From: Raillietiella orientalis | Taxonomy: Eukaryota | Direction: 5' to 3' | Length of the DNA stretch: 64,000 nt | NCBI GenBank assembly: GCA_036172245.1 | Contig: JAYWIR010000041.1 | Location: 1,674,001-1,738,000 of the forward strand | Shown here: positions 1 through 53,469 of the stretch, one piece after another | How positions within the stretch are numbered: the stretch's first letter is position 1 | Layout of the letters: each line of letters begins with the position of its first letter | Translations under genes and position numbers: made by a program | The notes under the pieces: generated by a model | The model's input: only the letters and a program-made list of their open reading frames with translations | Databases searched by the model: none | What the model was told of the DNA's origin: nothing

Positions 1-3000
1 TCGCGCCGGGAGGGTCAGCCTCGCGATTTTTCCCTTGGGAATTTGGCCGGGTTCCGCACCGCCACAGGGTCTCCCCCCCTCCCCAATGACCTACTTCCTC
101 CCGTCTCTCTCTCTCTCCGTGAGACTTCCAAGGCGAGCGCGTGAGTGGGAGGGGCGCTCCGTTCCGCTTGAGGCATCTCTTGTCCAGATGCGAGGGGGCA
201 GAGGAAACGTCCCTCAAAGTTCGCTTCCCGATCCCATGCCAGGAGCTTTCTCGACCTCGAGGTCCTGGCTGCTGCACTCCAGGGTTGGGAGCGGGGAAAG
301 GACAACCATTCTTCCTTTGGAGAGCGCCTCCCTTGCGAAGATGCTTGCAGGACGCAGCGGCACAGCATCGCGGCTTCTGGTTTGCTTGCCCTCGGTTCTC
401 AGGAGGATATTCTTACGGGAGGAAGGGAGAAGGGGCGGAGAGGTGGGGAGAAGAAGGTGAAAAGTCCTTGTCCTCCTGGGTGCCAGTGAGAAGGTGCGCG
501 CATCTCTGGCCTGCGATATACAGAGACGACGTGCGGAAAGGCCGTCCGCCCTCGCCGCGCTTGCCGCTGAGGCCGTCTCCTCTTTGCGAGACTTTTGCGA
601 GGCGGAGTGCTGGAGGGAGGGCCTGCACTAGGTAAGGAGGGGTGGACGATCCGAGGTCCCTCAGGATGCTGGGTTCTTCCTCCCCTCTGAAAGAATCTTT
701 CGTCTGGCGGCGTCAGCAGCTCCCTTCGGCTCCTGTCTATCCCGCGGGTTCGCCTCTGGGTCTTTCTGAGCCTCTGCTCCTCCAGAAGGACGCAGGAAGC
801 ACGAGGGGGAGGTTAGCTTGCGTCTCAGCTCGGCTTCACCCCAAGAGAAGCTTGAGAGAGGAGGGGGAGAGGTTACGAACCGAAGGGCATTTCCGGGTCT
901 CGAGAAGGTCACTCGACCTCTTCCCCTACCCCCTGGGCCGGAAGGTCGTTTCTAGTGGGAACAAGACCTTAGTGACGCGGGGATTCTGCGCGTCCGGAAG
1001 GGCAGCGCGAGGGCCGCTGTATTTCTGGAGCATCAGGTGGTCTCCCGAGAAGACTACAAGGGAACATTGCCCCTCCGCGTTTGCCCTCCTCAGAGGATGT
1101 GGAGGGGAAGGAAACCCCACCGGAGGAGCTGGCTGCCAAGCGGATCCTTCCTCAGCAGCAGCCTCTCCGGCAGTCATTTGTAGGGCCAAGACGGGCAGAT
1201 GCTCACGAAATCACGAGGAGGGGGGATTCCCCCTGCCCGTCTGCCCGTCTTGGCTCTGCTGCTCCTGAGGGAGCCGGCTCAGCTCTCCCCACAGGCAGGA
1301 GGACAGCGCTGTGCACGGGTTCGGTTGCAGGGATCTCCACAGCTTCCCCCCTCACGTGTGCTCCTCCTCCCCTGACTTTTCTCTCGCTTTCCGCCTTCAA
1401 ATCCCTTCGTACATCCTTTCCTCGGTCGTTCCGCAATTCCCTGGCAACCTCCGAGTTTGCATTCCAGGCTCTCTTCAAAGTGCACCGTCCAAAACCAAAT
1501 GAGCGGTTCAAAAGATTTTTTTTTTGTTTCTTTTCTTACCTAGTTTCCTTCGAGCTCTCTGCTGAACGGTTGCCTCGTCCTTTCCGTCGACAGGAGAGAG
1601 GGCAAGAACGGGGAAACCAAAACTCCAGGGACTCGACCCTGCGGCTGGTAATGCACAAAATCGAAGCCTCGAAACGCATAGGATCGAAAGATTCAACGAT
1701 CGCGTTGGGAACAGCAGCGGATTCAAAGGTTTCAAAGTATGGCGCACGGGAAGAATCGCTGAGGTGCATTCTCAACAGATGCAACAAACAAACCATGGTT
1801 TCTGGGAGGTGTGACGAGCTGATGGAATAGCTCAAGCGGTCCACTGAAACCGAACCCGGTACTCCATGGAGGAGGAAAAGCACTCGCATCGGAAGTCGCC
1901 TCTATGGCTGAGGTAGAAGAGGTGCAGCAGAAGAAGGAGAGCAAGTTGGACCTTCACTTTGCCTCCAAGGAGCACTCACTCTAGGATCTCTGGGATCTGG
2001 AGAATGAAGGGGTATGGAGGAAGATGAGGATTTCGAAGAGGCAAGCAGAGCGCATCAGAAAGGCTGCGTTCGAGCATTCCATGCTTCTGAGCTACAAGAA
2101 GCTTCTTTGAGACCAACTAGCAAGCAGTCCGCATTATGGAATCACAAGATAGGTCATCCTGCATTTTTTGCATGACAGAGAGGGGTCCGAACCATTTCCA
2201 AAGAAACTCGGACAAGTCCGTCTCTCGAGAAGACACCGAGCCTTTCTTTCGTCCTTGAACTGCCGATGTGGTAACATCCGTTCGCTCTCCACTAGAAGTT
2301 GGTTCATAAGTTTGGCCATGACCAATTCCTGGTAGCTCTCGGCGTGAACTTCCCTGAAAGCAGCTGTCTCGGGAGCGGAAACAGCTGCCTCGGAAGTTTC
2401 ATTTCTCGTCAGCGTTCCCTGGAATTCCTCCACGAACTCCAGCTTCACGAATAAGGTCAAATGTCATTCTGGAGGGTGCTCTCCCTTCTGTTTTTTTTCT
2501 TCGACGGGGGGCAGTCGCTCGAAAACGCTGGAAACCCTTTCTTACTCCGAGCTCATAAAAACAGGTGAAATCGGGACCCCGGCGCAACTGGATGAGGAAG
2601 CGCTCCGGAGCAATATCTTCCGACGCCGCGTTAATTTAAAATTTATTATGGTTCCTTCTTTTCAGGGGGGGGGGGGGGAAACGAGGAAGAGAATGGCTGG
2701 GGAGAGGGTATCGTCTCCCCGAAATTGTTAATGATGCCAGCATTCAATTGAATTTTTTCTCATCCACTTCACTCCTCTGTATCCGAAAAGGGAGCAGAGA
2801 ATGGTACCAAGAAACCGTAACTAATCATCTCCCGTATAAATACGTCAATTTAATGAATCTGTGGCGCGTGTGCTCAGCGGCTTGTTAAGAAAGCGGAGCT
2901 GCAGACAAAGGGCTCCTAATAATGCTGGATGTACTCGTTCGCTCGGAAACACTCTTGCATTTTGCAACCGATAAAGATGCCAAAACATTTGTCGGAACGC

Positions 3001-3495
3001 GACGGAGAAGCCCGGCGACAAAGCAAGCGGAGACCAAAAGATCGAGTCGCCGAGGTGATGAAGTATAAAGAGCGCTTATTTGGCGTGACGCTGCTGCTGC
3101 GGCTTCGGGAGCAGCTTGGCGAACATCGCAGGAAGGCTGTTCCGTTCAGGAAGTGCGGCACCGCATGCGCATCCTGGAAACGATGAGCGTGCCGCCCGGA
3201 GACAACTTCTGCGGGTTGCGCCCCCAGTCCGGGTTCGTTTCCCCGAGCCGACGTCCAGGTGTCCAAGGATCGCTGACTCTTGCGAGCGACTCTTCTCTTG
3301 CGAACGAAATCCAACCTCGGAGGTGTGCAGGACCCGAAGGAGAAGAAATGCCAGTACCGAAAGAGAGGGATTTAGTCTAGAGTTCTCATGGATGAGAAAC
3401 GTTCCTGTTTCGAGCGTGCGGGATAAGGGAAGGGGGAAAGAATTAAGCCTTGGGTTTCCTTCAGCTATGTTCCAGGCGCAGGTCACAGGTTGGAG

Positions 3496-3879
3496 ACGGC
3501 GGCGACGCGCGGAACAGAATGCGTGCAAGAACACTGGTCATGAAGTGCCAGGAAGCAGATAGAAACGCAGGCAGCTGGCGAGAGTTCCGTGGACATAGGA
3601 AGTGAAAAGAAGCCTCGCTGCTGCCTACCAAGAACGGTGGTTTCTACGGGAGATTTGTGTACCAGAAGAGAACGGAGCCGTCCCAATGCCGTCACGTTTG
3701 TGAAGTGGCAGAAAATTTCAAGCCAAGGAGTCTCCGGAGCTCGGAGGTGCTAGCCAGGAGATCATTTTTCGTTGGTCTCTTCGAAAACACAAATCCGTGC
3801 GCTGTCCATGAGGGACGCATGAACGATCATCATGCCGAAGAACGTACGGCTGGCCCACAGCATCTGCAGCAAGCATGCC
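3496..3879 (+). pseudogene. His3: Histone H3 pseudogene, near full-length and highly degenerate
   Basis: Translation across frameshifts gives RAEQNACKNTGHEVP / RKQIETQAAGESSVDIGSEKKPRCCLPRTVV / LREI / YQKRTE..VCEVAENFK..RSSEVLA..FVGLFENTNPCAVH / IMPKNVRLAHSICSKHA. This is colinear with canonical H3: [58 protein letters not shown]...VREIAQDFK...VGLFEDTNLCAIH...IMPKDIQLARRIRGERA. Confidence 0.9.
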
Positions 3880-7459: not shown

Positions 7460-8079
7460 TTCGCTGTTTTCGCAGCTCTTTAACACGGTTCCACGCCACC
7501 CGAGGGTGCGTGTAATTCCTCAAGATAGAGGATTACCCCGGGAGGGCTCCGCTCCATTTTTTCTTCTCCGAAGGGAACCCGGAAAGGATCTGCTAGTAGG
7601 AATTTCTTCTCCGGAGGAAACCTGCAAGGGAATCGCTCCTGTTGCCTCCTCCTCTGAAGCGAACCCCAAAGGGACGCTTCCGAAATTCAGAAGAGCTCTT
7701 TCCCAAAGGGAGCGGCACGCTTCTCTGCACTCTCTGGACAGGTGGCTACAGATCCTACTTCGTCAGTACGACGCGGAAGACCCCTCCCGAAATGGGGGGT
7801 CCGCTGCTTCACAACCAGAGGAGAAACTACCCATTCTTTGATTCTGTTTCCTGGTCATTACCCGGATGTCGACTCCCAATCCCGGCCACTCATCAGGGGC
7901 ATCCGGTTTTAACCACTACCAGTGCCTCATACGGGTGAATAAAGGCCAACCAGCGTCATCTTGCGGAAAGAACTCGAGCCCACGACTCACTGAGTCGATT
8001 TCTGTCGGGGTATTCGAACCCGCGACGCCTGGTATCACGCACGGAACCCTCGGCAACCACAAGGCCTCACGACGTGGGG
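7460..8079 (-). mobile_element. tRNA-derived SINE, diverged copy of the family at 59011-59602
   Basis: The minus-strand head has an A-box-like gaggccttgtggtt and the B box ggttcgaatacc. The body gaagggaacccggaaaggatctgctagtaggaatttcttctccggagg...gggacgcttccgaaattcagaag matches 59130-59250, and the 3' portion matches 31540-31600 in reverse. Confidence 0.8.
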
Positions 8080-11321: not shown

Positions 11322-11382
11322 CCCGAAGATGGCACTACGTAGCAAACGCGCAAAAGCTTTGCTACGTAGTGCCATCTTCGGG
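11322..11382. repeat. Perfect 25-bp inverted repeat with 11-nt loop (hairpin)
   Basis: cccgaagatggcactacgtagcaaa (11322-11346) is the exact reverse complement of tttgctacgtagtgccatcttcggg (11358-11382). Confidence 0.97.
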
Positions 11383-26560: not shown

Positions 26561-26639
26561 TGAATAAGAGGACATAGAGACTTCTTAGATGATTTAGGAT
26601 GAATGCTTGCTGTTTTCGCCTCCACTGAGCCTTGGAAAT

Positions 26640-27980: not shown

Positions 27981-28370
27981 AACCCCCTGCAGTCATCGCA
28001 TTTTCGAACTACGAACAGAGGGAAGTAACCACCAGGCTAGAAGAAACTGATTTCAGGAGAGCAGGTTCCGTTGCAGCTGCCGTGGAGCGGCTGTGAAGCA
28101 GGTTAAGGACCCCTTCCTTCTAGTCTGATGGTTTCGTGCTGTTGAGTCACTGCCTCAAGCTTCTTGGACCTGCTTCTTACAGTCGGTATCACAGTTAAAG
28201 AGAGTGATCGTCGGTTCAGTTCATCATCAGATGACGAGATTCCACCATGAAACAAAGAAATTTCCCCAGAGGACTCGAGCGAGGATGCTAAGAGCACTCT
28301 CATACCAATTCTTCGGAGCAGTGGATTTTAAACCTTCCGAGTTAATTGTGATCACCTCTGCAGAGTTGTC

Positions 28371-29889: not shown

Positions 29890-31000
29890 AAGCCGGCTCG
29901 TTCCAGCGCTACAGAGGCTCTTCCTCTAGTGAAGAAATGGAGAGCGAATCCGTGGTAGATGTTCTTGTGTTGTCTTGCCTCTTTCGAATCTGCGGCTGAT
30001 GGTTTGTAGGGACTAGGGAGTCCTCCAGAAGCCAAACGACTCTTTCGTTTTTTCCAAAGAGGAAAAGGGAGGGAAAAGGGAAATAAACAAAAAACAAATA
30101 AACCAAAAAAGGGCCAAAATGTGGGGGAAGCAAGGGAAGGGATCACTGCTATCTCCCTCGCGTCCTCTACATCCTTTGCAGGGTGCCGGTAAGTTCCTCC
30201 TTCTGTTGAGGGAGATGTGGCCATTCCGTAATCACCTTCAAAAAGATCACTAATGGAAAGAAGTCTATCATCGTGGTAGCTTTTAGGCGTTACGACCCCA
30301 AGTAAGTAGCACGGAGCTGCAGCGATTGACGCCGCAAGCGAAGAGACCTCTCAGAATGCGTCTCTCGTCAACTCTCGGTGAGCTCGGGGACGAAGGCAAA
30401 CGTTCCCAAACACTCTGGAGGGGAAACGCACTCGAAATGCAGGTGCAGGAAGATTTCTTCCTCACCACACCTGGCACAGTGAGAGGCTCCACCTCCCCTG
30501 GTCCAGTGGTGGACGCGTGTGTTGCGTGGGATAGCCCAATGCAGCAGTGGCAGCCCCAAATCCTGTCACTCCAAGGGAAGCACGGAACTGTTTAAAATAC
30601 CTCGGGGATCTCTGCTTCATCCCACGGGATTCCAGGAGATCCGCCTAGTGGAAAAGTTCTTTTGGGGAAGGAGGACAGCGGGGGTGGAAGTATCAGCTAG
30701 CTGATGCTCCTCCCATCAACCCAAGAGTATCTTCTTTCCTGCTATTTGGTGGCAGGACGGCGGCCAATTTGCCAATGTCTTGATTTTCCTGTAGGAACAT
30801 CAGCGCCGTAGAGATGTTGTTGAGACCATGTGGTTTTCCCGGAGCATTCCAAAATCTTCTTTAACAAGGACGAAGCGTAAATGCCACAGGCATGTCGTTC
30901 CCTCCTGTTGCAGTTTGGAATCGCTTTCCAGCATTGGTCTATACTAGCGCTATCAGCTCCCAATTTTCCTAGACAGTGCTTGGTCGAAGCTGCCACTTCA
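29890..31000 (-). mobile_element. Tx1/L1-like LINE 3' fragment, diverged
   Basis: LHWAIP..RVHHWT..HCARCGEEEIFLHLHFEC..VWERL. The 3' UTR is similar to those of the other copies. Confidence 0.75.
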
Positions 31001-31029
31001 ACATGATCCCTCACTCCGAGTTGCCAGCA

Positions 31030-31660
31030 CGGTGGCTGAGAATGGGGTTGAGAAGTTCCTGTTACCCCACGCATCTCCTGCACATGAGACCGCCACTCTC
31101 CCTGGTGGGTGCCTCTCACACAGTGTGAGGGACCCCTTCGGTTCGTTCAGGTAGAGTAGGTGTGTAGCTACCTCTACAGATGCTGAAGGAGCAGGCTCCC
31201 CATCCGGGAGGAACTCTCCAAGCCGCACTGATGGAGCAGATGTGTAGCCACCTCTCCAGAGAGTGCAAAGAAGCGAACCGATTTCTTCGAGGAAGCAGTG
31301 CCCTTCTGAATTTCGGAAGCGTCCTTCCGGAGTTCCTTTCAGAGGAGTAAACAGGAGTGGTCCACTTTCCGGGAGGTTCCTCCAGAGAGAATGAGGGAGG
31401 GGTGATTTTGTTCGGGGTTCCCTTCAGAGACAACCAGAGGGGAGGTTCCCTTGCGATATCCCTTTCCAGGCGTGAGGACAGACTCCGATCCCTTCCTGGA
31501 TTTATGAAGCGAACCTCTTCCGGGTACCTTCCGGGTATCTTGAAGAATTGCATGCACCCTCGGGTGGCGTGGAGCAGTGTGAAAGAGTTGTGCGAGCCGC
31601 GACGCTCTTGAGGTACTGAGCTAACCAAAAAAAATAAAACCCGAGAAAAAAAAGAAAAAA
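31030..31660 (+). mobile_element. SINE-family copy lacking a recognisable tRNA head
   Basis: Reverse-complement match to the 7470-7790 and 59130-59290 bodies (ttctgaatttcggaagcgtcc; gcaccctcgggtggcgtgga). A-rich tail at ~31627-31660. Confidence 0.75.
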
Positions 31661-32749: not shown

Positions 32750-33880
32750 AGAGGGGAACGAGGCGAAGACACCTGAGCGTGCATCTCGAAAGTGGCGATA
32801 CAGCCTTGAGCGGCAGCATCCCTGCGTGGAAGTGTGTGACGTTTCCTCCGCAAAGGCGTGGCCCGACTTCCATCATTTCTCCCCTCGCCGCAGAGCTGTC
32901 TGCCCTCAGGGCAAGCTACGACAGTAGCCAACCGGCGAGGTGGGAGTTCTGCGTCGTTGCGGGAAGAAACAAACTCTTGGCGACTGGAAGACGCGCGAGC
33001 TGGTGGATACTTCCACTCCGCGTGCCATGGCTACGGGACTCCTTCTGTGGAGCGAACTTTCGAGTCTTGTCCCCGAAGAACTTGTGATCCCCCCTCCCCC
33101 CATTGCTTGAACACTCCAGTGTTTCCTCTCTTCTGGAAACAGGCCGTGCTGCTCTTCCTCCGCTGGGGATTCCAGTGCAACGAGAGGCGACACTGCGTGT
33201 CCTCAAGGGTTGCCACCCCCCTGCGAAGCAGGTGCGGGTCGGCGCGGAGTCGATCCCGCCGCACCTGCTTTTGGACGGCGGTGTCCTCCAGGAATCGTGG
33301 CGGATGCTGGCATCAACACTCCTGCACCGGGAAGACACCGCCTGAGATGTGCTGCCACGCTTCTTCGCTCCGGGAGGACTCTCGACTGTAGCGGTGGTAG
33401 CTCGCCATGTGCTCGAGACAACCACGTAGCGAAGGGAGGTCACTGAAGTGGCAGCCACCTACATGAGGACGGCTGCAAGGTGACCTCACCTGGAACAGGA
33501 ACTGAAGGAAGAGATCCGCTGGCATCCAGCGTTGGTTTGAGGACAGTTAGGAACGGCGGAAACCTCTGACCCTTGTCCCCTGACTCCCTTTATTTTTTCC
33601 TCATTCTCCATTCCTCATCCCTCTTAGTTTTTTGTTTTGATCCCGGTGCACACGGAACGAATTCAAAGATCCCTGTCCTATCCCACCATATTTGTTTTAT
33701 TTATTGATTTTTTGTGTGTGTGTTTTCCCCCTTCCCTCTCCTTGCCGGACTTTTGGTTATCCCTGCCTGTGTTCTGCGTGTCGATGGACCTTCTTCTTGG
33801 AGTTCTTTTGTCGTCGGTTGGGAACCAGCGTGTTCCCGACTGGTTTATTTTTCACCCGGGGGTGACCGGGTGAAAAACTT
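32750..33880 (+). mobile_element. Tx1/L1-like APE endonuclease fragment followed by a family 3' UTR
   Basis: AGDSSA (cf. GDFN) and LTWNR in APE order. A T-rich UTR follows and ends in tttttcacccgg-gggtga-ccgggtgaaaaa. Confidence 0.5.
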
Positions 33881-38420: not shown

Positions 38421-39325
38421 AAAAATCCCTTACCCTGATTTTCTGAAAATCGACATAATTAGTAGGTGCTCGTTCCCACTCCAGGGCACCTTCCAGAATA
38501 TATTTTCACACCTTTCTAAGCAGTTCCCTCCCTCCCTCCCCCACTAATGTCTGTGCTCTGATAAGAATCTTTATCAGGTCTCCGACTTTGGATGAAAGCG
38601 AAAGGCGTTGGAAACTCATTACTCGCCTAAGCGATAACCCTATTACATGGTAACAAATCCAAATGTGTTGACTAACAGGAAAAAATGTTCACAATGATTT
38701 TTTCATCTTTGCAATTTAAGGATCAGAATTTTAGTGGGAAAACAGCGGCCACTCGAATAGAAGAGGCTGGAAAGCACGCACCAAGCCCTACGGCTTTGAT
38801 TCTGCAAAGTGGTTGACATTTCGTTCGAGTTCAAGGAAAAAGGAATGGGAGTAACTCAGTTTCGAGCATTGGTATCTTTTTTCTTGGCATCCGGAATAAC
38901 ATTTAGTGTTTGCGTTTTGTGTGTATTGCATCTTATTTACTTCTCTTCTCGAGCAATGTTCTTCGGTGAATGAGTGAAAAAAACCAAGTTAAGAGTACCA
39001 AAAGTAGTGCAAAGATCAAATTTTATTTGTTTGAGCCGTTTCTTTTGCTGATGCTTTAGCAGTGCCGTCAGCTCTCAGAAGGCTTCGTTGACCTTCGTTG
39101 ATCAATGCTCCAGAAATGTGTTCTCCAAGTTCAAAAAGCAAAAGCAAAGACTGTTTGAGAAGTTCGAGATCCATTTACTAAGTATTTGGAACAGGGGCTG
39201 AAGATGACCAGAAGAATTCGTCAGGAGGAATTAGTTAATATTCTGGGAAACAAACATGCTTATGTTTAGATTGTGACAGAAGGATGCAATTTTCAGAATG
39301 GTTCTCGCGGGCATCTCTACGACAG

Positions 39326-39448
39326 ATAGCTGATGCGATACTTCGTGATGGTGATGTCATAACAGGAAGCGATTGCATAATAGAACAAGAAACTGGTAAA
39401 ACCACACTTGAAGCAGGAAAAATCTATCTTCGTGGAGCGGTTAGAAGG
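39326..39448 (+). other. Bacterial endosymbiont-derived fragment: Wolbachia phage WO DUF4815-like protein
   Basis: IADAILRDGDVITGSDCIIEQETGKTTLEAGKIYLRGAVR is recognised from memory as close to the N-terminal part of Wolbachia prophage DUF4815 proteins (IGDAIFRDGDVITGSNCIID.ETGKVTLE.GKIYLRGAVR). The frame is uninterrupted, the sequence is A-rich, and similarity stops abruptly on both sides. Confidence 0.85.
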
Positions 39449-42560: not shown

Positions 42561-42599
42561 TTTAGAGGAAAATAATACTCCACTGTTCTCATAAGGTAT

Positions 42600-42890
42600 T
42601 CAGTGCGTTAGCTGGAGCGCGGATGGTAGTGCCAGGCAGGTCGGTCTATCCCAGACGAACGCTCCACAGCTCACGACATCGGGAAGCGCCACCGGGAAGT
42701 CTTCTCCATGGAGATGACCGCCCAGTGAATGGCATTCTGCTGTTGTGGCCTGACACAGATGCAGACCATTTCGCCAGGATTCCTCGTATGCAACAGAGAA
42801 CTGCGACACACGCGGCTGCTGCATGGGCGTCCTGCATCAAGAAGCGACGGAAAGTGTTTCTTGGGTCGCCAACCGGAATATTCATTTACA
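42600..42890 (-). mobile_element. Tx1/L1-like ORF2 C-terminal fragment
   Basis: NIPVGDPRNTFRRFLMQDA..CVAVLCCIRGILAKW is homologous to 24082-24390. Confidence 0.75.
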
Positions 42891-43830
42891 CCCGGGTGCG
42901 TCAGGGCGTTTATTCTTGCGAACAAAACTTATATAAATTCTGTGTCTTGACCAGTGGTCCAGCCACGCCCTAAATGTTTGCAGCCTGACGGGTAACCGGA
43001 GTATGCAGACCGGTGCAGTCCACCTCGGCAGCAGAGGGGAGCAAAAAACAAAAAGAAAAAAAAATAAACAAAACTGGGGAGGGAGCAGGAAGGGATCACA
43101 GTCTGCTGAGAGGATCCGTCATCCTCTGGAATATGCCGGCAAGCTGTTGCTGGATGTTCGATTCCAGATGGGGCCATCGCGTCGCCATCCTCAGGAAGCG
43201 GGCGGCATATTCGCAGGCATCCCTGTCTGTTGGGTCCTCCCGTCGCCTTGCTCCATGCAGCGACGATCCCGCGTAGGCAGCACATGGCTGCAAGCGAAGC
43301 CGCTGCGGCAGAGCGTCACGGACGAAGAGGGGTCGCAAAGCGTCTCTGGGGTTGCCTCCGGGGATTCCCAGGGCCGCGGCAAAGCGTTTCCACAGGGGCC
43401 GGAGGGCAACACAATCCACTAAGAGGTGGGAGAGGGATTCCCTCCCCCCGCACCTAACACAATTTGGGTTCACACACACCCGCGTCCCTGGTGCTGAGAG
43501 CGTAAACCTGCCACCTTGGAACGGGCCGATCGCCGTCTCTACCTTCTGAAGGCAGCTGGACCACGCATCCGAAGGGAGATAATCCTCCAACGGTGCACTG
43601 AAGTACTTGAAGTACCGTACCGTGGGGATCCCCAAGCGGATCCAGTCCAGCTGCCCTGCCCACGCCGCTCCAACTGGCATCACGGACGACTTCGCCCTGT
43701 TTACCCTTAGCCTGTTCCCGACTCAGAAAGTCGAAGAACTCCTCGACCACGGGAAGCCGGAGTGGACATGGGGAGCAGCAGCAGAAGGTCGTCCGCGTAT
43801 GCTGAACGGCGTATCGGGACAATCGCTCGG
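42891..43830 (-). mobile_element. Tx1/L1-like LINE: RT core to 3' end with a large internal deletion
   Basis: SAYADDLLLLL (YADD at 43788-43799), LRVNRAKSSVM and VRYFKYF..WSSCLQKVE run directly into NPNCVRCGGRESLSHLLVDC. A 3' UTR with AATAAA follows. Confidence 0.92.
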
Positions 43831-44360
43831 CAGGTGAGCCAGAGTTTCCCTCTACGCTCTCAATACCAATTGGAAGTAGGTCATGAAGAGCAAGGGACTC
43901 AGGCTGTCACCCTGCCGTGTGCCGCGTCGCACCAGTACGCCATGCACGGTGTGCCCGCTGAAAGAAATGAGCGCGTCGCGCCAGCAGGAGCACAGGTAGA
44001 CCATCAAAGAGAACGGAAATCCCAAGCGTTCCAGGAGCTCCAGAAGGAGTCGGAATGTTCAGGATGGACGACAGTCCATTCCACATTGGGAGGAGGGAGA
44101 CATACTCGATTAGCAAGTGGGGAAAGGTTTCCCTTTCCCTGCAGCCTGCACAACTGGCATCCACATTCTCTAGTGTCCAATGAGAGAGACATGCTCTGCA
44201 AAGGAGTCCCCAATGCAACACGAGCAACGCCGTCTCTTGCCACTCCTAGGAGAGGGTGCCATTGTCCCAACGCGCTGGGGGCCACTTCACCTCCTCCGGA
44301 GGTATGCCAAGCAGCTCACGATGAAGTAGTGACATGGTTTCCATGGTTGAAGACGTGATG
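43831..44360 (-). mobile_element. Tx1/L1-like zf-RVT fragment
   Basis: LHWGLL..HWT..DASCAGCRERETFPHLLIE..MWN. Nucleotide similarity to 24350-24460. Confidence 0.8.
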
Positions 44361-44699
44361 CATCTTCCATCGTTCAGGTCTTGTGCCACATGGAGGTGCT
44401 GGGAGCAGTCCCTTTCCCGGTATGGGAACCACGGCAGTCTACCTCTAGGCCAGGAATGAGGATCAGTAACTGCGAACAGTTCGCCACGAGTGGCAATAGC
44501 CACAGAATGCGACGGTATCGTTGCATCACGAAAATGAAGGGAAGATTTCGCCGCAGGACCCTCGAGCTCTAGAAGCATCAAGAGACCACTGCTGATCAGC
44601 AGGGCCAGCATCCGCGAGGAAATGAAGAAAAACATAAACGAAGACGAACTGGATGAGGCCGCCAACTGCTACGGGGTACGCAATGTGAGCCTGCGAGCG

Positions 44700-45210
44700 G
44701 TTGGCACGATATGCTGAAGAACAATTTGCCACCAGATTCTCAGGATAACCTCCTGAGGCACTACCATGGAGGCATCGTGAGTGGCTCCCGACTGAAACAC
44801 TGGACAAGCAACAGCCAGGACGAGCTCTGGAAGTCTTGTGGAGATAGGGAAACCCAGATCCACGTTTTCACCTGCTTCACGCTGGGCCAGGATTTGAAAA
44901 CTCTGAAGGCGGTCACCGGTCTGCAGGCGAAGACGTGGATGGAGATTTTGGCGGGTATGCTTGAAGGGGATGGGAACATTCTCCGATACAATCCCATAAT
45001 TCGAACCACCATCGCCCTCTTCACGAACATCGCGAGAAGGGCAAAGATGCGGAACACCGGAACGAAGGTGCCTGCCATGAACATCATCCAAGGAGTGCTT
45101 AAGGATGAGAGGAATCAGGAACTGCTGCAGGATACTCTCCTGGACTTACTGCTACATCTTGAAGAATATGGCGGACGATGTCCGCGTGAGTGGATTACAT
45201 TGCCCACCTG
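44700..45210 (+). mobile_element. L1/Tx1-like ORF2 C-terminal fragment, different family
   Basis: RHYHGGIVSGSRLKHW...KSCGDRETQIHVFTC matches the zf-RVT pattern, in a 166-codon open frame. Confidence 0.65.
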
Positions 45211-45520: not shown

Positions 45521-46292
45521 ACCCGGGTAAGCAAGTTTACTTAATGAAAATAAACATTTACAATTTTTGTGGTATAACCAGTGGTTATACTACAAAAATG
45601 GGCGTAATTGGACCAGTGGTCCAATTACGCCCATTTCAAAGGGCACCTGCCGGATTGCCGGCACGCACACCGGTGAGGTTCCTCTCGGCAGCAAAGGGGA
45701 GGGGGCAAACAAAAAGAAACAAAAATAAAAAATAAATAAACTTGGGAGGGTGCGGGAGGAAATCACATTCTGCTGAGGGCGGTACTCTGCATCCTTTCGA
45801 GGATGCTGGTAAGTTCGCGCTGCATATGATCCAGGTGAGGCCATCTTGTTGCCATCCTCAGGAAGCGGACGGCAAAGTGAATGGCATCTCTGTCGCTCCG
45901 TCCTCTTGCATTGCTCCAGGCCCTTACAATCCTGCGTAGACAGCGGAGAGCTGCTAGCGAGGCTGCTGGACCAAGGGCGTCGCGTACGAGGAAGGTTCTT
46001 AATGTGTCCCTGGGGTTGCCGCCGGGGGCTCCTAGGGTCGCGGCAAAGCGTTTCCAGAGGGGCTGGAGAGTAACACAATCTACAAGCAGGTTCAAGAGGG
46101 ATTCAAGTTCCTCGCAACTGACACAGTTCGGGTATACACGCACCCGGTTCCAGTGATGCCTGCGGGCGCTGCATGGGAGACCCCAGTGCAGCTGCATCAA
46201 CGCAGACTCCTACTACTCGAAAGGGAGGGTACGAGTGTCTAAGGGCACTGGGGGCCACTGTAGATTTTCCACCAGAATATCCAGCAGCTCAC
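45521..46292 (-). mobile_element. Tx1/L1-like LINE 3' fragment, copy B (near-identical to copy A)
   Basis: Matches ~28400-29112 with scattered substitutions, plus a ~35-bp palindromic insertion near 45586-45620. Confidence 0.92.
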
Positions 46293-46319
46293 CCCAGCTC
46301 AGAGCTGTCGGTACATGAG

Positions 46320-46876: not shown

Positions 46877-48010
46877 CCCGGTTGCGCTGGGGAGTATAGT
46901 GGTCTCTATAAACTCACAAGAAAAAAAGCAGTATTAGGACGCTTTGTCCTACCACCCCCAAATGTACCTCGAAAGTACTGGCATGCCGGCTCGCGGACCG
47001 GCAAGTTCCTCCTCAAGGACAGAAGAAAACAAAGAAAAAAAAAACACAGAAAGCGAAACGAAAATAAAAAGATATATAAACATATTGATATATAACTTGT
47101 GTGTGTGTGTGGAGGGGACTCGGAAAGGGATCACTGCTTGTTGCAGGAGGTCCTCTGTGTCCTCAGAAGGATGTCGGCAAGTTCCATCCGAATATTCCTC
47201 GGATGTGATCCGAGAAATATACGAATCCCATAGGGCGAATATTGGCATGAGGCGAATCACGAAGCCGATGGACTCTCTTTCGTCCTGACCTCCTTCGGTT
47301 GAGCTCCAGGCCGCCACAAGCTCACCAAGTCAACTAACGATGTAACTAGAGACAGTGCTTCTCACACGAGGAGGCTCTTAAGAACACCTCTGGATGAGAT
47401 ACTATAAGATTGCGTGCAGGAGGAAACCACTTCGTTGTCCACCGGAATTCGAAGGACCGTTACAAAAACGTTCCCAGACGGATCGGAGGGCAGCACAATC
47501 CACAAGCGCGTGGGGCATCTTGGAACTGAAAACGGAAATACTGAACTTTCCTCGCACTTGCCACAGTTCGGGTCCTCCCCCTAGGCGAGTAATGCCAGCG
47601 GGCGTGGCATAAGAGACCCGAGTGAGAGGTAAGCAGCTCCGATTTCTGCCACCTTAGGAAAAGGGCGAACATATCTCTGAGTACTGCTGGAAGCAACAGA
47701 TCTTCCAGGAAGATATCCAGGAGCTGGATCCGGCAGATTAGTCATGAGGACTCAGCATCGCTGAGCAGCCCCGTTGTCCATCCAACAACCAAGTGGCTTC
47801 CTCCTGCACTAAGAATCTCACAGCTGATTTCCCACATCGCCGGTAAGCAACCGCCACTTGCCTCATTTAAGGAAGGCAGCGCTGCAGCAAATGGGGGTTT
47901 TGATGCCCACGCAGTCTTCCTAGCTATGCTTTCAGCCTTCCCCAACGGGCTAAGAGCGTAGGCGCTGCGATTGCTCCCCCCACTTCTGGACTGTTTGCTA
48001 AAGCCAGGCA
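46877..48010 (-). mobile_element. Tx1/L1-like LINE 3' fragment, diverged
   Basis: DPNCGKCEE..HALVDCAALRSVWERF, upstream LPS..SGGCLP, a T-rich 3' UTR and a degenerate terminal stem. Confidence 0.7.
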
Positions 48011-48049
48011 TTACCGTGGGGAGAAGGGAAATCCGGGCGTTAAAGAACT

Positions 48050-48240
48050 AAGAAGAGCAGAGAGAAGAGACCATCTGCCGAACGGCTGATACCCGCAACG
48101 GAGCATGCTTCGGTGCTCGCACACGAAGAAACATTGCTAATCCCTCGGAACCGACTGCTTTCTTGGAGCGGACGTGCTCGGGAACTCACTGGGGTGTCGG
48201 CCGATTTTTCGCCACCAGAGCAAATCTTCTGAACTGCAGC
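48050..48240 (-). mobile_element. hAT transposase dimerisation-domain remnant
   Basis: EDLLWWRK..SEFP, then SVAGISRSADGLFS (cf. WW....FP.L....S...ER.FS). Confidence 0.5.
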
Positions 48241-48839
48241 TGACGCTCCATTCTTCCAGCGTCAGGAGGCTCCTATATCTCGACGTGGAGCCACTAGATC
48301 TTTCAGACGGACACATGACCTTTCCTTGCTCCACAGAGCGTTCCTCAGGAGGTCCGCTGTCATTTTTTTTTTTCCGTTTTTCTGGGAAAGGGACAAGCAG
48401 AAATCAGGAGACGAGATAGTCGGACTCCGAATTTGAGTCCCTATTAGTAAGGAACGAGTACAACACAGCATGAAAACGGGTGGGACCCTATCAAAGCGTG
48501 CGGGAAGTGAACTGGCTGCCGGCGACGGCGCTGAGCTTTATTCGAGGGCGGAATTCTCTTGTCTCCGATGATTCGGAAAGGTGCTGCACGTGAGAGGGAA
48601 GGCGTAATGTCTCTTTCCAATCACCTGTGCTGCCGGACGACTACCCGTCGGGCGAGGTGCTCCCCACTTTATTGCCTTCTCAGCTGTAACGCAGAGGATC
48701 GCTTCCTCTCATCTTCCCAGTGTTGCCTGCTGGAATGTCGACGGACTTCACGACGGCGATGCGCTGTGCCCATTCCGCCTCGCACTCCAGCAGGGGATTC
48801 GCATCATATCCTACCATGAGATTGCAGAGGTCGAGAGAA

Positions 48840-49330: not shown

Positions 49331-49599
49331 GAGTGCACTACATTGGCTCTGCATAAGGCCAACCTGTCATTTGAATGCAACAGTCCTGCGAAACTTCGAG
49401 GACAACAAGGTACGCATTTCGCCGGAGCATGAACTCTACGCACTGGGCAAATATTCCATCTATTCACGGGAGTGTCATCTGACGAGGACAGCTATGCCTC
49501 ACAGGGGCCTCGAGCTTCGCGTGCACAGTCTGTTGTAAGAGGTTTCTAGCGGTCTTGATAAGTCCTTCACAGGCAGATCAATCGTAGCCACTAGCAGAA

Positions 49600-51960
49600 A
49601 GCTCAAAAGTAAAGATGCTCCAGATGTAGAGAGTCTGCCTACGGAGTTTTACCACTCTTTGCGACAGAGCTGGTTCTCTTGATGGTACTGCTGATTCGGT
49701 AGACGGACCAAGTGCAAAAAAAGAGATTCGCTCTGCCTGAGCTAACTGGAGTCCCCTCAGACTCATGAATGAAAACATCAAGCTGCACTCCAAGGTGCCG
49801 AACGTAAAAATAGGACAGTTGGCAGGATCCAAAATCAGCCCGAAGGAAACCTACGCGGTCCCAGGTCGAACCATGGATACCATGGTTCGACCTGGGACCA
49901 TGGTATCCATGAATGAACCATGAATACCAACCTGCTTCACGCCCACACCTAATTCAGGCTGACCATAAGAAGAAGCCATAACTGCTTCTAAAAAGAGTGC
50001 AGGGTGCGCGGGAGGTTCACACGGTGTTTCACTTGAGAAAGGAGTACTGACTTTTGCAGTCGATCATCAGAAGGCTCTGGGCTGCATCCATCAGGAGCTC
50101 CTTCTCAAGCTACTGGAACTGTGACTCTCAAGCCAGCCTCCTCAGTTACCTGAGCTTGCTGTGGCACAAAGTCAAAATTACCGTTCTCTTCAGCGGTCTG
50201 CTCATCAAAGACAACAAAGTCGAAAGAGGAACCAGGAATGCGGACAGATTGAGCAGGATACTCTTCAGTCTCTGTACTAGTGCTGAACACGTACCGGCAC
50301 ACTCTAGCCTGTCTCCCGTCCAGCTCCTATGACAAGCCTGGTGCAGCGGCCTATGCGTACGGATTGCTCATCCTGGTGCCCATGAGGATTTCAGTAATCG
50401 CACGCGAAACCTTCTTCGAGCTGAAACGAATCTCCTAGAGCGACGAGGAGAGCAAGCATTCCAGAGAAAACAAAACAGGAGCTCCGAGAGCACTTCCTGC
50501 CTGACACAGTCGAAAACCTTTGCAAGACCAACCGACATAGCCAAGGTTCCTGGCTCTTCCTTTCGTTTGTGTCTTCCCCTGCTCAAGTCGGACTGCACAT
50601 TCAAAGGCCGGCTTCTTTTGAGCGCGACTCAATTCTGTGGCCTGAACTCGGTCTGTGTGCACAAGTTGCTTTCAATGTTCCGTCCAGGAACAGCTAAATT
50701 CCGGGTTAATGACAGAGTCCTCCATCCTCCCCAGTCACGCAGTGTTCACAGTTTGGAAAGCAATTTGACGTCCAAATTCACGACGTAATCGGACACCAAT
50801 TTCTCAGTCTGCGAAATTCTTTATTGAGGGCAAACGAACCCTCGCCGATCGGAAGGATGCAGGCAAGTCGGCCGCCTCCCTGATCACTTATGCCAGCTAC
50901 AGCAGTGGGAGCTCATTTTCGCTGCGAAGCACTGATAAAGTGATAAAGTGCCAGCAGGCCGTTCTCCTTCGATGCTGTTCGCCTCTTGACTTTTGCCATG
51001 GCAGCCAAAATTTCGGCTATCGCGAAAGGCTGGTCAAGAATTATTCATGGCTCCTTCTATATGGCGAGTGTCTTCCAGCAGCAATTGCTATGCGGGGTCT
51101 CGCTCCATGGGTTCATGCTTATACAAGGAAGAGCAGGAAGTCTCTGCAAAACCGATGGCTCATGACCTTGCTCGTCCAGCACGCATAGTACTCCGGACTG
51201 CCCAGTCTGCTTCTCGGCCCTGGACCGATATTCCTCCAGCCGCTCGCCAGCAGAGGAGGCGTGACCCGCAAGAGATGCTACTGTTGAGAACTGCCTCCTC
51301 AGAGGTTGTGGAAAGTTGATAGATGGAAAAATAGAGATAGAACTTTGGGAGCTCCTGGGTAACAAAGTCACTCAGGAACCTGAAGTTCGTCCTTCTTTCG
51401 AAATGACTTAAGCCAGTCCTCTGGTAGCCGCTAGATGTGCATTGGCATTTCTTTCCCAGGAAGCACTAGCTTCAGCTCGATTCCTGTGTTGATAGGAAAA
51501 AAGATTGACCTCCGACTTACTCTGCACCCGACCTAGACCGGCAGGAACAGAGGGAAGTGGTCAACGGAGTCCATCATCTGAAGTTCGTGGGCCAACAAGT
51601 TCGATGCGTTCACGGACGCGCACAACTCGTTGACCTGAGCCCGCTGATTCCAACTTTGAAGCCATTTGATAACAAGAGGATGTTAAAGCCGCCCTCTGTC
51701 AGATGCATAGTCTGGAGGCCAGAAGTGGTGAGTCACTGCGTACGGAGGGCATCAATGAATGGACGACGCCCCGCATAAGCGCGCGAGCAGCTCGGAGCGT
51801 AAACATCCGTGACAATCAAACTGAAAGGGTCCAACTGGCTCGATCACCGACCGTCCCTCTCGAAGTGAACGCTTACCCACCGCTCCTAGTTTTGGGTTTC
51901 ACTAGAAATGCGACTCCGCAGGGCTGTGCAGGTATTTGCACTTCCAGTGTGATATCGCGT
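49600..51960 (-). mobile_element. Decayed LINE ORF2 (APE + RT), CR1/L2/Jockey-like
   Basis: CGVAFLV (APE), RTLSL, QTEFR, VGLAKVFDCV (cf. D..KAFD.V), LDGRQARV, YVRHLGVQLD, in canonical order. Confidence 0.7.
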
Positions 51961-52299
51961 CCATGACGTAACACTGGAAGTGCTCCCCGTTCGATTTCTA
52001 TAGCATTGCTGTCAGATCTGGCGGGTCTCTAGCAGATGGACGACATCAAAGGGGAGCAGGGAGCTAGCTGCCATCGTCGTAGTACGCAAGAAAGGAGTGT
52101 TCCTTGTTTGGGTGAAGGCCTTGCGTCCGAAAGAAAGGGTTCACCTCGACCGTTTCGAACCCTCAGCCTTTTTTCTCGCCGCTAGGGAGTTCTTTCTGTT
52201 GTGTTACGCTTGCTTGATCTCTGACGTCGCTTATGAACCTAAGACTTATTCTGCCGATGTGACTGTCTAGGTCTTCGCTAGGTCGTTCGGAGGATGTCT

Positions 52300-52950
52300 C
52301 AGACAATGAACCCGGTAGATGTCGCGACTGTGTTGAATGATAGAAGACACTGGTTTGCACGCCCTCTTGGATTTCCAGCTTTTTCGGGACATGGTCATTC
52401 CTGGAATCCTAGGATCTCGATGGGCTTACGACAACCCCTGTGGACAATGTGGGCTGAACCTTGTTTTCTGGGAGTGAGACAACAGGAGTATCGTTCCAAT
52501 TGAATTTTACGCTTCTCATTCAGACTACTTGATGAGCGCTGCCGTAGTGCTTTCAAACAGGCAGTAGCACATGCGATGACGCAGTTCACCTCTTTCAGGA
52601 CGAGGTGAGGTCGCAGCAAAAGCTCGACACCGGTGTCATCCTTGGTTGCTGGCCAAGATTTCCCCCATCATCCGTGTGTCGCGTTTTTGATATAGTTGCT
52701 CAAGGCGTACTGGCTCCTGGTGCAGATGTGACAATGTCTCATGCAATGATTTAAAATGTGCAGCCGCGTTCCATCTCATTTCGGGCACCTGAGGCAAGAG
52801 CGATCCCCTCATGTTTTCTAGCTGCTGCTCGGGCGGACGAGCGGTACTAACGAGTTTGTAGTTCGCAAAGCGTAGGTGATCTCCGCTGTAAGAAAATGGC
52901 CAGAGGCCCAGTGCAATACCACTCAGAACACGGTCCTTCCCTGATAGAAA
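52300..52950 (-). mobile_element. Utopia-like (NeSL clade) retrotransposon C-terminal remnant
   Basis: QGRTV..ASGHF..SGDHLRFANYKLVSTAR (cf. QGK..S.HF..G...RFADWRF..RAR), CPK..TRLHILNHC, LRPHLVL (cf. LRPDLV), RS*DSRND (cf. GSWDP.ND), HSRDIYRVH (cf. SRDIY.EH). Confidence 0.9.
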
Positions 52951-53469
52951 TGCTCATCATTTGGTGATTGCCATGCCTTACTTCATTGGATGGTGAGAGA
53001 GCTGGAAGTTGCATAACAGTTTCGGTGCGTTTTTCTGTTCATGTCCATCGGAGTGTTTGCACGAGATAGCCTGCCCACAGCTTTAATTCCTTCCTAGTTC
53101 TAAGCCCACAGTTTTCTAGTTCTTTTCCCTGTTTTGAGAAGCACAAAGAAGAAATGGAACTTTTTGAAATTTGTTAGATTTTCAGAGTTTGTTTCCTTCC
53201 AGGCTGAGAAACTGAACTTCAAATCGAGCCATTTCCTGGAAATTTCAGTTTACAGTCGTATGAGCGGCCAGTCAGGATTTGTGAACCACAGAATCGGTTC
53301 CTCTCTCGTTCTCAGGAAATCAGGAACTCTCTAAACGCATTCTCTTGACATCTTGTGTGTTCTCACTATTTGCTGAGAAGAATGGAAATTTTTTTTTAAG
53401 ATCGTGGGTCTCTTGGACTTGTCTTGTAGACTCAAGAACAATTTTCTTTGTCAATCACAACATACGTTT

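What the first reader, a model, noticed from the sequence alone, without database searches (positions are those of the whole stretch)
1..53100. Dense catalogue of unrelated transposon, viral, endosymbiont and host-gene fragments: candidate piRNA-cluster-like locus
Seen: about 53 kb of closely packed short fragments from many element types (Tx1/L1, NeSL/Utopia, I- and CR1-like LINEs, SINE, piggyBac, pogo, hAT, possibly Tc1 and KDZ). A Gc-like relic, a Wolbachia-like piece and H3/TRAF/U2 pseudogene fragments lie among them, on both strands, with no intact gene. Known: arthropod piRNA clusters accumulate TE fragments and non-retroviral EVEs. Inference: this may be a dual-strand piRNA source locus that also archives endosymbiont and host-gene sequence.
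Basis: partly seen in the sequence, partly recalled or inferred. Interest (0 to 1): 0.8.

Follow-up and report, generated by a model that had tools for sequence, protein, structure and literature searches.

The report
Decayed LINE graveyard with Wolbachia-phage scrap
A GC-rich 53-kb stretch of an arthropod-type genome holds old, broken retrotransposon copies, a 120-base scrap of Wolbachia-phage DNA and no working gene; it looks like ordinary repeat-derived DNA, and sequence alone cannot show whether it makes piRNAs.

Summary
Window 1-53,000 is a compositionally distinct block (GC about 0.50, against 0.35 beyond 53 kb) with no intact gene. I could verify:
- about 12 decayed, 5'-truncated fragments of L1/Tx1-like LINEs, from at least two families, on both strands but mostly minus, crowded into 23.9-33.8 kb and 42.7-51.1 kb;
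- two copies of a SINE-like retroposon, with a third outside the block;
- one genuine but tiny Wolbachia prophage WO piece (39,326-39,446; 88% nucleotide identity);
- one weak carotenoid-oxygenase-like relic.

These cover 9.8 of 53.1 kb (18%). Windows 1-23.9 kb and 33.8-42.7 kb are almost unannotatable.

Exhaustive Pfam and Rfam scans did not detect piggyBac, pogo, hAT, Tc1, KDZ, a bunyavirus Gc, H3, TRAF or U2. These scans also missed most of the real LINE pieces, so very decayed relics cannot be excluded.

The piRNA-cluster reading could not be tested: no sequencing run was listed and no genome is held. The best reading is an ordinary old TE graveyard containing a small nuclear Wolbachia transfer. 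A piRNA source locus remains possible at about 10%. Interest is low.

The parts
1..53000 (.). GC-richer block (GC about 0.50, CpG o/e 0.82) without an intact gene; it contains all the parts below except the third SINE-like copy
   Evidence: composition; GC steps 0.51 to 0.40 at 53,000. (Pfam).
7473..8078 (-). SINE-like retroposon copy with a tRNA B-box-like head
   Evidence: 68% identity to 59,110-59,601. Alignment A2.
23912..24465 (-). LINE ORF2 C-terminal / 3' end fragment
   Evidence: tblastn with P0007; tblastx self-hits to the 28.7, 42.7 and 45.9 kb copies.
26707..26991 (-). Carotenoid-oxygenase (RPE65/CCD family) C-terminal relic inside a 241-aa ORF; weak
   Evidence: Pfam RPE65 at 23.2 bits, E 4.2e-5, below the cut-off of 27; 17.4 bits in read-through. 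PDB 6vcf at E 0.025, aa 75-162 against 367-452 of 472.
28370..29310 (-). LINE 3' part (end of ORF2, stop, about 270-nt 3' UTR); 97.4% identical over 693 nt to the 45.6 kb copy
   Evidence: (A1).
30107..30595 (-). LINE ORF2 C-terminal fragment
   Evidence: tblastx self; profile positions 964-1077, 18 bits.
31184..31607 (+). SINE-like retroposon copy, 5'-truncated, with an A-rich tail
32919..33800 (+). LINE tail fragment in the opposite orientation
   Evidence: tblastn with P0007 at 33,346-33,492(+); inverted tblastx hits.
39302..39448 (+). Nuclear Wolbachia transfer: N-terminal scrap (about aa 38-86 of 643) of the phage WO 'virulence-associated protein / VrlC.1' gene (DUF4815)
   Evidence: Pfam DUF4815 at 40.7 bits, E 1.3e-10..
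42736..42885 (-). Short LINE tail fragment
42889..44058 (-). Most complete LINE piece: second half of the RT, thumb, CCHC knuckle and 3' UTR, with stops and frameshifts
   Evidence: RVT_1 at 18.8 bits; 43.2 bits.
44051..44338 (-). LINE ORF2 C-terminal fragment
   Evidence: (26.9 bits).
44489..45208 (+). Tail of a second LINE family; the only ORF in the window that still shows codon periodicity
   Evidence: Periodicity p = 1.4e-5, the only locus of 395 ORFs to pass Bonferroni. Atlas scores 0.95-0.96, with one cluster 25% zf-RVT. Weak profile hit. Knuckle aligned. No database relative.
45532..46317 (-). LINE 3' part, twin of the 28.4 kb copy, with a 41-nt palindromic insertion at 45,596-45,636
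47115..48366 (-). LINE fragment: co-linear tail HSPs plus P0005 aa 457-538
49539..50429 (+). LINE RT fragment (P0005 aa 51-352, 34-44% identity)
50476..51038 (-). LINE RT fragment (P0005 aa 56-245), head-to-head with the previous part
51679..53258 (-). Tentative further LINE pieces: endonuclease-like at 51,679-52,119 and C-terminal at 52,560-53,258
   Evidence: Profile hits of only 9.9-13.1 bits; not counted in the 18% coverage.
59033..59601 (-). Third SINE-like copy, outside the block, with a poly-A tail (T-run at 59,007-59,031 on the + strand)

Best explanation
The block is ordinary, old, repeat-derived non-coding DNA of a Wolbachia-exposed invertebrate, most likely an arthropod. It is a 'TE graveyard'.

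How it arose:
- Shown: L1/Tx1-like LINEs inserted repeatedly and are now 5'-truncated copies. This pattern is what target-primed reverse transcription produces (established knowledge).
- Shown: a tRNA-related, A-tailed SINE-like element also inserted.
- Inferred: new insertions landed among older ones, and everything then decayed neutrally. That would explain why only one ORF keeps codon periodicity and why most of the block is no longer recognisable.
- Inferred: a short piece of Wolbachia prophage WO DNA and a piece of a carotenoid-oxygenase gene were caught in the same way as other filler DNA, probably at double-strand-break repair.
- Inferred: the block is GC-richer than its AT-rich flank because its elements are. 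The SINE-like copy at 59 kb raises local GC in the flank in the same way.

No function needs to be assumed. Whether the block is also transcribed into piRNA precursors is open.
For: - No gene. Of 702 ORFs of 50 aa or more and 30 read-through pieces, only the DUF4815 scrap passes a Pfam cut-off.
- LINE identity. One search gives 7 hits, the best at 59% identity. Six of 7 have RVT_1 and one has the full APE+RT+zf-RVT architecture. The best solved relative of P0005 is human LINE-1 ORF2p at E 7e-40, against R2 at 7e-17. There are 171 longer relatives, with RVT_1 precomputed in all 120 listed, together with Exo_endo_phos and/or zf-RVT in most of them, and one is named 'Transposon TX1' by its source.
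- All LINE pieces are partial: 3' tails or RT parts, and none has a clear endonuclease.
- Age. Copies are 68-75% identical to each other, except one pair at 97.4%. Only 1 locus of 395 ORFs keeps codon periodicity.
- The SINE-like repeat has a B-box-like head and a poly-A tail, and occurs outside the block too.
- The Wolbachia piece is 121-147 bp. It is 88% rather than 100% identical to any Wolbachia, and its flanks match no Wolbachia DNA.
Against: - 82% of the block is unassigned, so 'TE-derived' is an extrapolation for most of it.
- Long ORFs are in excess over a first-order Markov resampling: 155 observed against 96 +/- 8.5 at 100 aa or more, reached in 0 of 200 resamplings. Yet they lack codon periodicity. 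This is unexplained, and could reflect composition below the 1-kb scale.
- LINE fragments lean to the minus strand, 9 of 12. That would fit a uni-strand piRNA cluster or an intron.
- The boundary at 53 kb is sharp.
- None of this was compared with the genome background, because no genome is held.
Confidence: 0.65

Rival explanations
1. The block, or its LINE-dense parts at 23.9-33.8 and 42.7-53 kb, is a piRNA cluster. It would be transcribed mainly from the + strand, so that the minus-strand LINE fragments give antisense piRNAs. The WO scrap and the host-gene relic would be passively included.
For: - TE fragments are nested, truncated and old, with one younger pair.
- 9 of 12 LINE fragments are on the minus strand.
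- Foreign DNA is embedded.
- There is no gene in 53 kb.
- Mosquito piRNA clusters are enriched in antisense endogenous viral elements (10.1101/2022.08.22.504762, abstract start seen in the listing).
Against: - There are no small-RNA data.
- The strand bias is not significant: two-sided binomial about 0.15 for 9 of 12, and 0.065 for 9 of 11.
- Only 18% is recognisable TE, from few families.
- Most fragments are too diverged (68-75% identity) to target active elements.
- From my own knowledge, in large TE-rich arthropod genomes only a small share of TE-rich DNA belongs to piRNA clusters.
Confidence: 0.12
2. The block is a large intron, or the UTR-flanking region, of a + strand host gene whose exons lie outside the window or are too short to detect. 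LINEs survive preferentially antisense to the gene.
For: - LINE fragments lean to the minus strand.
- Antisense bias of retroelements in introns is established knowledge.
- A carotenoid-oxygenase-like stretch exists at 26.7-27.0 kb.
Against: - No exon-like Pfam hit on the + strand anywhere in 64 kb.
- The oxygenase-like piece is on the minus strand, scores below cut-off and sits in an ORF without codon periodicity.
- The bias is not significant.
Confidence: 0.12
3. The Wolbachia-like piece, or the whole mosaic, is an assembly artefact: a chimeric contig or endosymbiont contamination.
For: Endosymbiont reads commonly contaminate arthropod assemblies (own knowledge).
Against: - The piece is only 121-147 bp.
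- It is 73-88% rather than about 100% identical to the five genomes searched.
- It sits inside a continuous 41% GC stretch.
- Its flanks match no Wolbachia DNA.
- The window contains no N.
Confidence: 0.03

Closest known systems
Arthropod piRNA clusters (Drosophila flamenco and 42AB; Aedes clusters rich in non-retroviral endogenous viral elements)
   Same: A gene-free stretch tens of kb long, holding truncated and nested TE fragments plus a piece of foreign DNA. The LINE fragments lean to one strand.
   Different: No small-RNA, transcript or chromatin evidence. Few element families are recognisable. No viral relic was detected. Most fragments are very old. Half of the block holds no recognisable TE.
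Nuclear Wolbachia transfers (nuwts), as described in Drosophila ananassae, Brugia and many other hosts
   Same: Wolbachia/prophage WO DNA embedded in host sequence, diverged from living Wolbachia (88% identity) and non-functional.
   Different: It is very small, 121-147 bp of one gene, whereas the well-known cases reach kilobases to whole genomes. No further Wolbachia DNA lies within 64 kb.
L1/Tx1-type non-LTR retrotransposons
   Same: The RT is closest to LINE-1 ORF2p among solved structures. Relatives have the APE+RT+zf-RVT architecture. There is a CCHC knuckle near the C-terminus, and the copies are 5'-truncated.
   Different: The aligned 3' ends show no poly-A tail (A1). No endonuclease part was securely found in the window. 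The clade (L1 or Tx1) was not resolved by a tree.
tRNA-derived SINEs
   Same: A unit of about 600-700 bp with a B-box-like motif near the 5' end, an A-rich or poly-A tail, dispersed copies and one 5'-truncated copy.
   Different: ARAGORN finds no tRNA and Rfam finds no tRNA-like match at E<=1. The unit is long for a SINE. Only 3 copies were seen.

Membership tests
piRNA cluster | Dense, uniquely mapping 24-31-nt small RNAs with a 1U bias (plus a ping-pong 10-nt overlap for dual-strand clusters) | not testable with these tools
   No run holding the DNA was listed, and read laying therefore could not be used.
piRNA cluster | High density and diversity of TE fragments relative to the genome background | tested here: inconclusive
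   18.4% of the block is assignable, against 5% of the 11-kb flank, from two LINE lineages and one SINE-like repeat. There is no genome for a background, and Pfam is insensitive to the decayed pieces.
piRNA cluster | Orientation bias of the fragments (uni-strand), or bidirectional transcription with H3K9me3/Rhino-type chromatin (dual-strand) | tested here: inconclusive
   9 minus against 3 plus LINE fragments, two-sided p about 0.15. Chromatin is not testable.
Nuclear Wolbachia transfer (nuwt) | Sequence derived from Wolbachia or its prophage | tested here: met
   The 10 best of 32 phage records are phage WO. Identity is 88.4% over 121 nt. The best of 10 genome loci are Wolbachia at 67-75% aa identity.
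Nuclear Wolbachia transfer (nuwt) | Flanked by non-Wolbachia (host) DNA on the same molecule | tested here: met
   The whole window was searched against 5 Wolbachia/Rickettsiales genomes, and only 39,326-39,449 matches. LINE and SINE-like repeats lie on both sides.
Nuclear Wolbachia transfer (nuwt) | Junctions supported by reads or PCR (not an assembly chimera) | not testable with these tools
   No runs were listed.
L1/Tx1-like LINE | Reverse transcriptase of the non-LTR type | tested here: met
   6 of 7 relatives have RVT_1; LINE-1 ORF2p at E 7e-40; 43.2-bit profile hit at 43,843-44,049.
L1/Tx1-like LINE | APE-type endonuclease N-terminal to the RT | tested here: inconclusive
   It is present in relatives. 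In the window there is only a 9.9-bit hit at 51,679-52,119. The copies are 5'-truncated.
L1/Tx1-like LINE | Poly-A or simple-repeat 3' end | tested here: not met
   The three aligned 3' ends lose similarity after a shared A/T-rich stretch, without a poly-A run (A1). The family is therefore called L1/Tx1-like, not a typed member.
tRNA-derived SINE | tRNA-related head with A and B boxes | tested here: inconclusive
   A B-box-like motif is conserved in 2 of 2 copies that keep the head (A2; motif recognised by eye). ARAGORN gives 0 and Rfam gives no tRNA match.
tRNA-derived SINE | A-rich tail and dispersed copies | tested here: met
   The 59 kb copy has poly-A and the 31 kb copy has an A-rich tail. 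There are 3 copies on both strands.
DNA transposons (piggyBac, pogo, hAT, Tc1, KDZ), bunyavirus Gc, histone H3, TRAF, U2 snRNA | Recognisable domain or RNA-family match | tested here: not met
   No such Pfam family in 702 ORFs (E<=0.01) or in 30 read-through pieces (E<=0.01 or 0.1). Rfam gives 0 at gathering score and no U2 at E<=1. No TIR-bounded element was found. Sensitivity for very decayed relics is low.

The most novel reading that the evidence does not exclude
The LINE-dense part of the block is a uni-strand piRNA cluster read from the + strand, and it has trapped a fragment of Wolbachia prophage WO. The host would then make small RNAs matching a phage/endosymbiont gene, extending the 'genomic archive' idea from viruses and transposons to a bacterial symbiont. 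(The WO fragment lies in sense orientation on the + strand, so its piRNAs would be sense to the phage gene.)
Probability: 0.05. Interest if true: 0.6.

Novelty: new member of a known kind. Interest (0 to 1): 0.2.

Why it matters
As it stands, little. It is one more repeat-derived block with one more small nuclear Wolbachia transfer, and both kinds are well known.

It is useful as a calibration. A tool-free reading named about ten element types plus H3, TRAF, U2 and Gc relics. Of these, only the LINE (L1/Tx1-like), the SINE and the Wolbachia piece could be reproduced.

If small-RNA data showed piRNAs from 39.3 kb, it would be an example of endosymbiont-phage DNA inside a piRNA source. My two literature searches (listings only) did not turn up such a case. 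In the second listing, 10 of the 12 listed papers show no occurrence of 'piRNAs', and neither of the 2 that do mentions nuwts.

Tried and rejected
- Whole genome for a background comparison: none held.
- Sequencing runs for window:31001-41000, kind 'any': none was listed and no RNA holder was listed.
- Earlier findings of this scan: nothing by place or for two sequences.
- Word-indexed protein search with two window ORFs, 43,099-43,722(-) and 44,657-45,208(+), lengths 'longer': no hit. This is weak evidence.
- Metagenome scan with P0005: 7 loci, only 22-61% identical over short stretches, and no tblastx hit of 40 bits or more to the window.
- Cluster look-up of the 7 relatives: 6 unnamed, the seventh (P0010) named by NCBI as a plant protein unrelated to the locus; from metagenome, ENA, Logan or NCBI sources.
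- Small 9-protein LINE profile: found fewer pieces than tblastn with P0005.
- tblastn with 120 distant LINE ORF2s: 31 HSPs at only two places.
- Search for TIR-bounded DNA transposons: 45 inverted pairs, mostly A/T runs or short hairpins, and no convincing element. One 25-nt pair 346 nt apart at 47,414-47,809 lies inside a LINE fragment.
- Tandem repeats: 3 trivial arrays.
- The long ORFs P0001-P0003 (376, 335 and 284 aa) were considered as genes and rejected. They have no Pfam hit, an S/R/P/G-rich composition and no codon periodicity.
- A large decayed Wolbachia insertion was considered and rejected: only 121-124 nt match.
It was re-sent as six calls of 5 references each.

Full report
WHAT THE WINDOW LOOKS LIKE

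The window has no N. GC is 0.44-0.59 in 2-kb steps over 1-53 kb, apart from a dip to 0.41 at 38-42 kb. It falls to 0.29-0.41 over 54-64 kb. At 250-bp resolution the step from 0.51 to 0.40 lies at 53,000. CpG o/e is 0.82 in the block and 0.66 in the flank. No whole genome is held, so no genome-wide background could be computed.

IS THERE A GENE?

No.
- I scanned every stop-to-stop ORF of 80 aa or more against Pfam: 290 ORFs.
- I scanned every ORF of 50-79 aa: 412 ORFs.
- I scanned all six frames read through stops as X, in 30 pieces of about 4,265 aa (at E<=0.01; at E<=0.1).

One hit passes its curated cut-off: DUF4815 at 39,239-39,490(+), 40.7 bits.

Three hits below cut-off are meaningful in hindsight:
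- RPE65 at 26,470-27,192(-): 23.2 bits as an ORF, 17.4 bits in read-through.
- RVT_1 at 43,855-44,058(-): 18.8 bits as an ORF, 12.8 bits in read-through.

The remaining weak hits are isolated, below cut-off and unsupported by anything else: Sex_peptide, Topo_C_assoc, HTH_21, Phage_zn_bind_7, Mucin and CecR_C.

Rfam gives 0 matches at gathering score and 3 unrelated ones at E<=1. ARAGORN finds no tRNA.

THE LINE FRAGMENTS

Direct repeats pointed to a family with copies at 28.4-29.1, 42.9-43.5 and 45.6-46.3 kb.

An exhaustive phmmer search with the read-through of 43,099-44,100(-) found 7 proteins at E<=1e-3. The best, P0005, has 619 aa, 59% identity and E 1.2e-57. Six of the 7 have RVT_1 above cut-off. 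P0008 also has Exo_endo_phos and zf-RVT, the architecture of a non-LTR ORF2.

Against solved structures, P0005 matches human LINE-1 ORF2p best (E 7e-40), with R2 proteins far behind (E 7e-17 and weaker). Of its 171 longer relatives, 120 are listed. All 120 carry RVT_1, most together with Exo_endo_phos and/or zf-RVT, at 23-31% identity. The named ones come from ticks, a pseudoscorpion, a lizard, frogs and plants, and one source calls its protein 'Transposon TX1'. 'L1/Tx1-like' is therefore supported, but I did not build a tree and the clade is not typed.

I mapped the fragments in four ways:
- tblastn with P0005-P0011;
- tblastx of the window against itself;
- tblastn with the 120 relatives, which gave 31 HSPs at two places only;
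- a 1,159-position profile built from the 120 relatives.

Fragments on the minus strand:
- 23.9-24.5 kb
- 28.4-29.3 kb
- 30.1-30.6 kb
- 42.74-42.89 kb
- 42.89-44.06 kb
- 44.05-44.34 kb
- 45.5-46.3 kb
- 47.1-48.4 kb
- 50.5-51.0 kb

Fragments on the plus strand:
- 32.9-33.8 kb
- 49.5-50.4 kb

Two further weak places on the minus strand, at 51.7-52.1 and 52.6-53.3 kb, score only 9.9-13.1 bits. I treat them as tentative.

All fragments are partial, being tails or RT parts. The aligned tails show the ORF2 stop, an about 270-nt 3' UTR and no poly-A (A1).

Copies are 68-75% identical at the DNA level. The exception is the 693-nt pair 28,432-29,124 and 45,612-46,304, at 97.4%.

A SECOND LINE LINEAGE

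A test of base-by-codon-position association was run over all 395 ORFs of 70 aa or more. Only one locus passes Bonferroni: 44,657-45,208(+) and its antisense frames, with p from 1.4e-5 to 6.7e-7.

That ORF has no Pfam hit and no word-indexed relative. The protein-atlas features place it at 0.95-0.96 next to unnamed eukaryotic clusters, in one of which 25% of members carry zf-RVT. The LINE profile touches 44,489-44,878(+) weakly. BLASTP aligns its cysteine-histidine knuckle with that of the 43 kb LINE at E 0.037 for the single comparison.

I read it as the tail of a second, younger LINE family on the plus strand. This is a lead, not a proof. With it, the count is 9 minus to 3 plus.

THE SINE-LIKE REPEAT

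Three copies exist: 7,473-8,078(-), 59,033-59,601(-) and 31,184-31,607(+).
- The two minus copies share a conserved head containing a tRNA B-box-like motif, which I recognised by eye.
- The 59 kb copy ends in a run of about 17 A.
- The 31 kb copy lacks the head and has an A-rich tail (A2; T-run).

One copy lies outside the block, so the repeat is dispersed and not specific to the block.

THE WOLBACHIA PIECE

- tblastn with the 84-aa ORF against 50,697 phage records hits 32. The 10 best are all Wolbachia phage WO, at 63-67% identity over aa 19-70. The gene under the match is annotated 'virulence-associated protein' or 'VrlC.1'.
- Against 19 kb of one WO record (L001), only 39,302-39,448 matches by tblastx. 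blastn gives 88.4% identity over 121 nt, at about aa 38-86 of a 643-aa protein.
- In one genome per prokaryote species, 10 loci encode a relative. The best are Wolbachia, at 67-75% aa identity.
- The whole window was searched as DNA in four overlapping stretches against five of those genomes. It matches only at 39,326-39,449, at 73-88% identity.

It is therefore a genuine, small, diverged nuclear Wolbachia/prophage transfer with non-Wolbachia flanks. It is not contamination and not a large insertion.

HOST-GENE RELICS

I did find a weak carotenoid-oxygenase-like stretch at about 26,707-26,991(-). It aligns to the C-terminal 85-95 residues of the family in Pfam and to a solved carotenoid cleavage dioxygenase at E 0.025. 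Its ORF has no codon periodicity. It is probably a pseudogene scrap, but the evidence is marginal.

HOW DENSE IS THE 'CATALOGUE'?

The secure features add up to 9,764 of 53,100 nt, or 18.4%.

| Region | Share assigned |
|---|---|
| 42.7-51.1 kb | 61% |
| 23.9-33.8 kb | 36% |
| 1-23.9 kb | 4% |
| 33.8-42.7 kb | 1.7% |
| 53.1-64 kb (flank) | 5% |

Intra-window repeats cover 4,231 nt.

The picture of about 53 kb of closely packed fragments of many types is not reproduced. There are two LINE-rich sub-blocks, and large stretches in which my tools recognise nothing.

Two cautions work against my own reading.
- First, Pfam detected only one of the roughly 12 LINE pieces, and only weakly. A missing Pfam hit therefore does not exclude equally decayed transposase, glycoprotein or host-gene relics.
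- Second, the block has more long ORFs than a first-order Markov resampling within 1-kb blocks: 155 against 96 +/- 8.5 at 100 aa or more, 40 against 19.5 at 150 aa or more, and none of 200 resamplings reaches the observed counts. These ORFs show no codon periodicity. This may be a trace of long-decayed coding sequence or only fine-scale composition. I cannot tell which.

THE PIRNA QUESTION

Nothing I could run bears on small-RNA output. No run was listed for 31,001-41,000, and that blank is not evidence either way.

Sequence features often cited for clusters are present only in a weak form:
- truncated and nested TE pieces;
- a foreign insert;
- no genes;
- a lean to one strand. This is 9 of 12, two-sided binomial about 0.15. 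For 9 of 11 without the second lineage it is 0.065.

The same features describe ordinary TE-rich intergenic DNA, heterochromatin or a large intron. From my own knowledge, only a small share of TE-rich DNA in large arthropod genomes belongs to piRNA clusters. I therefore put the cluster reading at about 0.1, and the plain 'graveyard' reading at about 0.65.

The literature searches (I saw only listings and the starts of abstracts) show two things:
- endogenous viral elements in mosquito piRNA clusters are well described;
- nuwts are common.

In the second listing, 10 of the 12 listed papers show no occurrence of the term 'piRNAs', and neither of the 2 that do mentions nuwts. I read no paper in full and saw no supplements.

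VERDICT

Most of the named element types and the claimed density are not. The interpretation cannot be judged without small-RNA data. The locus is best filed as an ordinary old LINE/SINE graveyard with a small nuwt. It is a new member of known kinds and of low interest.

Noticed in passing
window 28,432-29,124 and 45,612-46,304: Two LINE 3' parts are 97.4% identical over 693 nt and lose similarity at the same element position on the 5' side, while their flanks are unrelated. All other copies are 68-75% alike. This could be a recent duplication or gene conversion, or a short non-autonomous derivative with a fixed 5' end.
   Followed up: partly
window 45,596-45,636: A 41-nt perfect-arm palindrome (20-nt arms, 1 nt between) forms an insertion in the 3' UTR of the 45.6 kb LINE copy relative to its 28.4 kb twin. 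It looks like a local inverted duplication of the adjacent UTR sequence.
   Followed up: partly
window 49,539-50,429 (+) and 50,476-51,038 (-): Two RT fragments covering the same part of the RT (P0005 aa 51-352 and 56-245) lie head-to-head only about 50 nt apart. A 20-nt-arm palindrome at 49,857-49,899 sits inside the first. This may be an inverted duplication rather than two separate insertions.
   Followed up: no
window 44,657-45,208 (+): This is the only ORF in the window with significant codon periodicity (GC1/2/3 = 0.55/0.41/0.64). It has no Pfam hit and no word-indexed relative. It may be the tail of a younger LINE family.
   Followed up: partly
window 1-53,000: Long ORFs on both strands are in excess over a Markov-1 resampling (155 against 96 at 100 aa or more; reached in 0 of 200), yet they lack codon periodicity. 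This is unexplained.
   Followed up: partly
window 53,000: GC steps sharply from 0.51 to 0.40 within 250 bp, then stays at 0.29-0.41. A tentative LINE C-terminal piece (52,560-53,258, minus strand) straddles the step.
   Followed up: no
window 11,322-11,382: A perfect 25-nt inverted repeat with an 11-nt loop lies in an otherwise unannotated stretch.
   Followed up: no
window 18,489-18,661 and 21,300-21,470: A pair of direct repeats, 75% identical over 174 nt (52% at the protein level in one frame), of unknown nature. They are the only repeats found in 8-24 kb.
   Followed up: no
window 26,470-27,192 (-): A 241-aa ORF whose middle aligns weakly to the C-terminal blade of carotenoid oxygenases (RPE65/CCD family).
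   Followed up: partly
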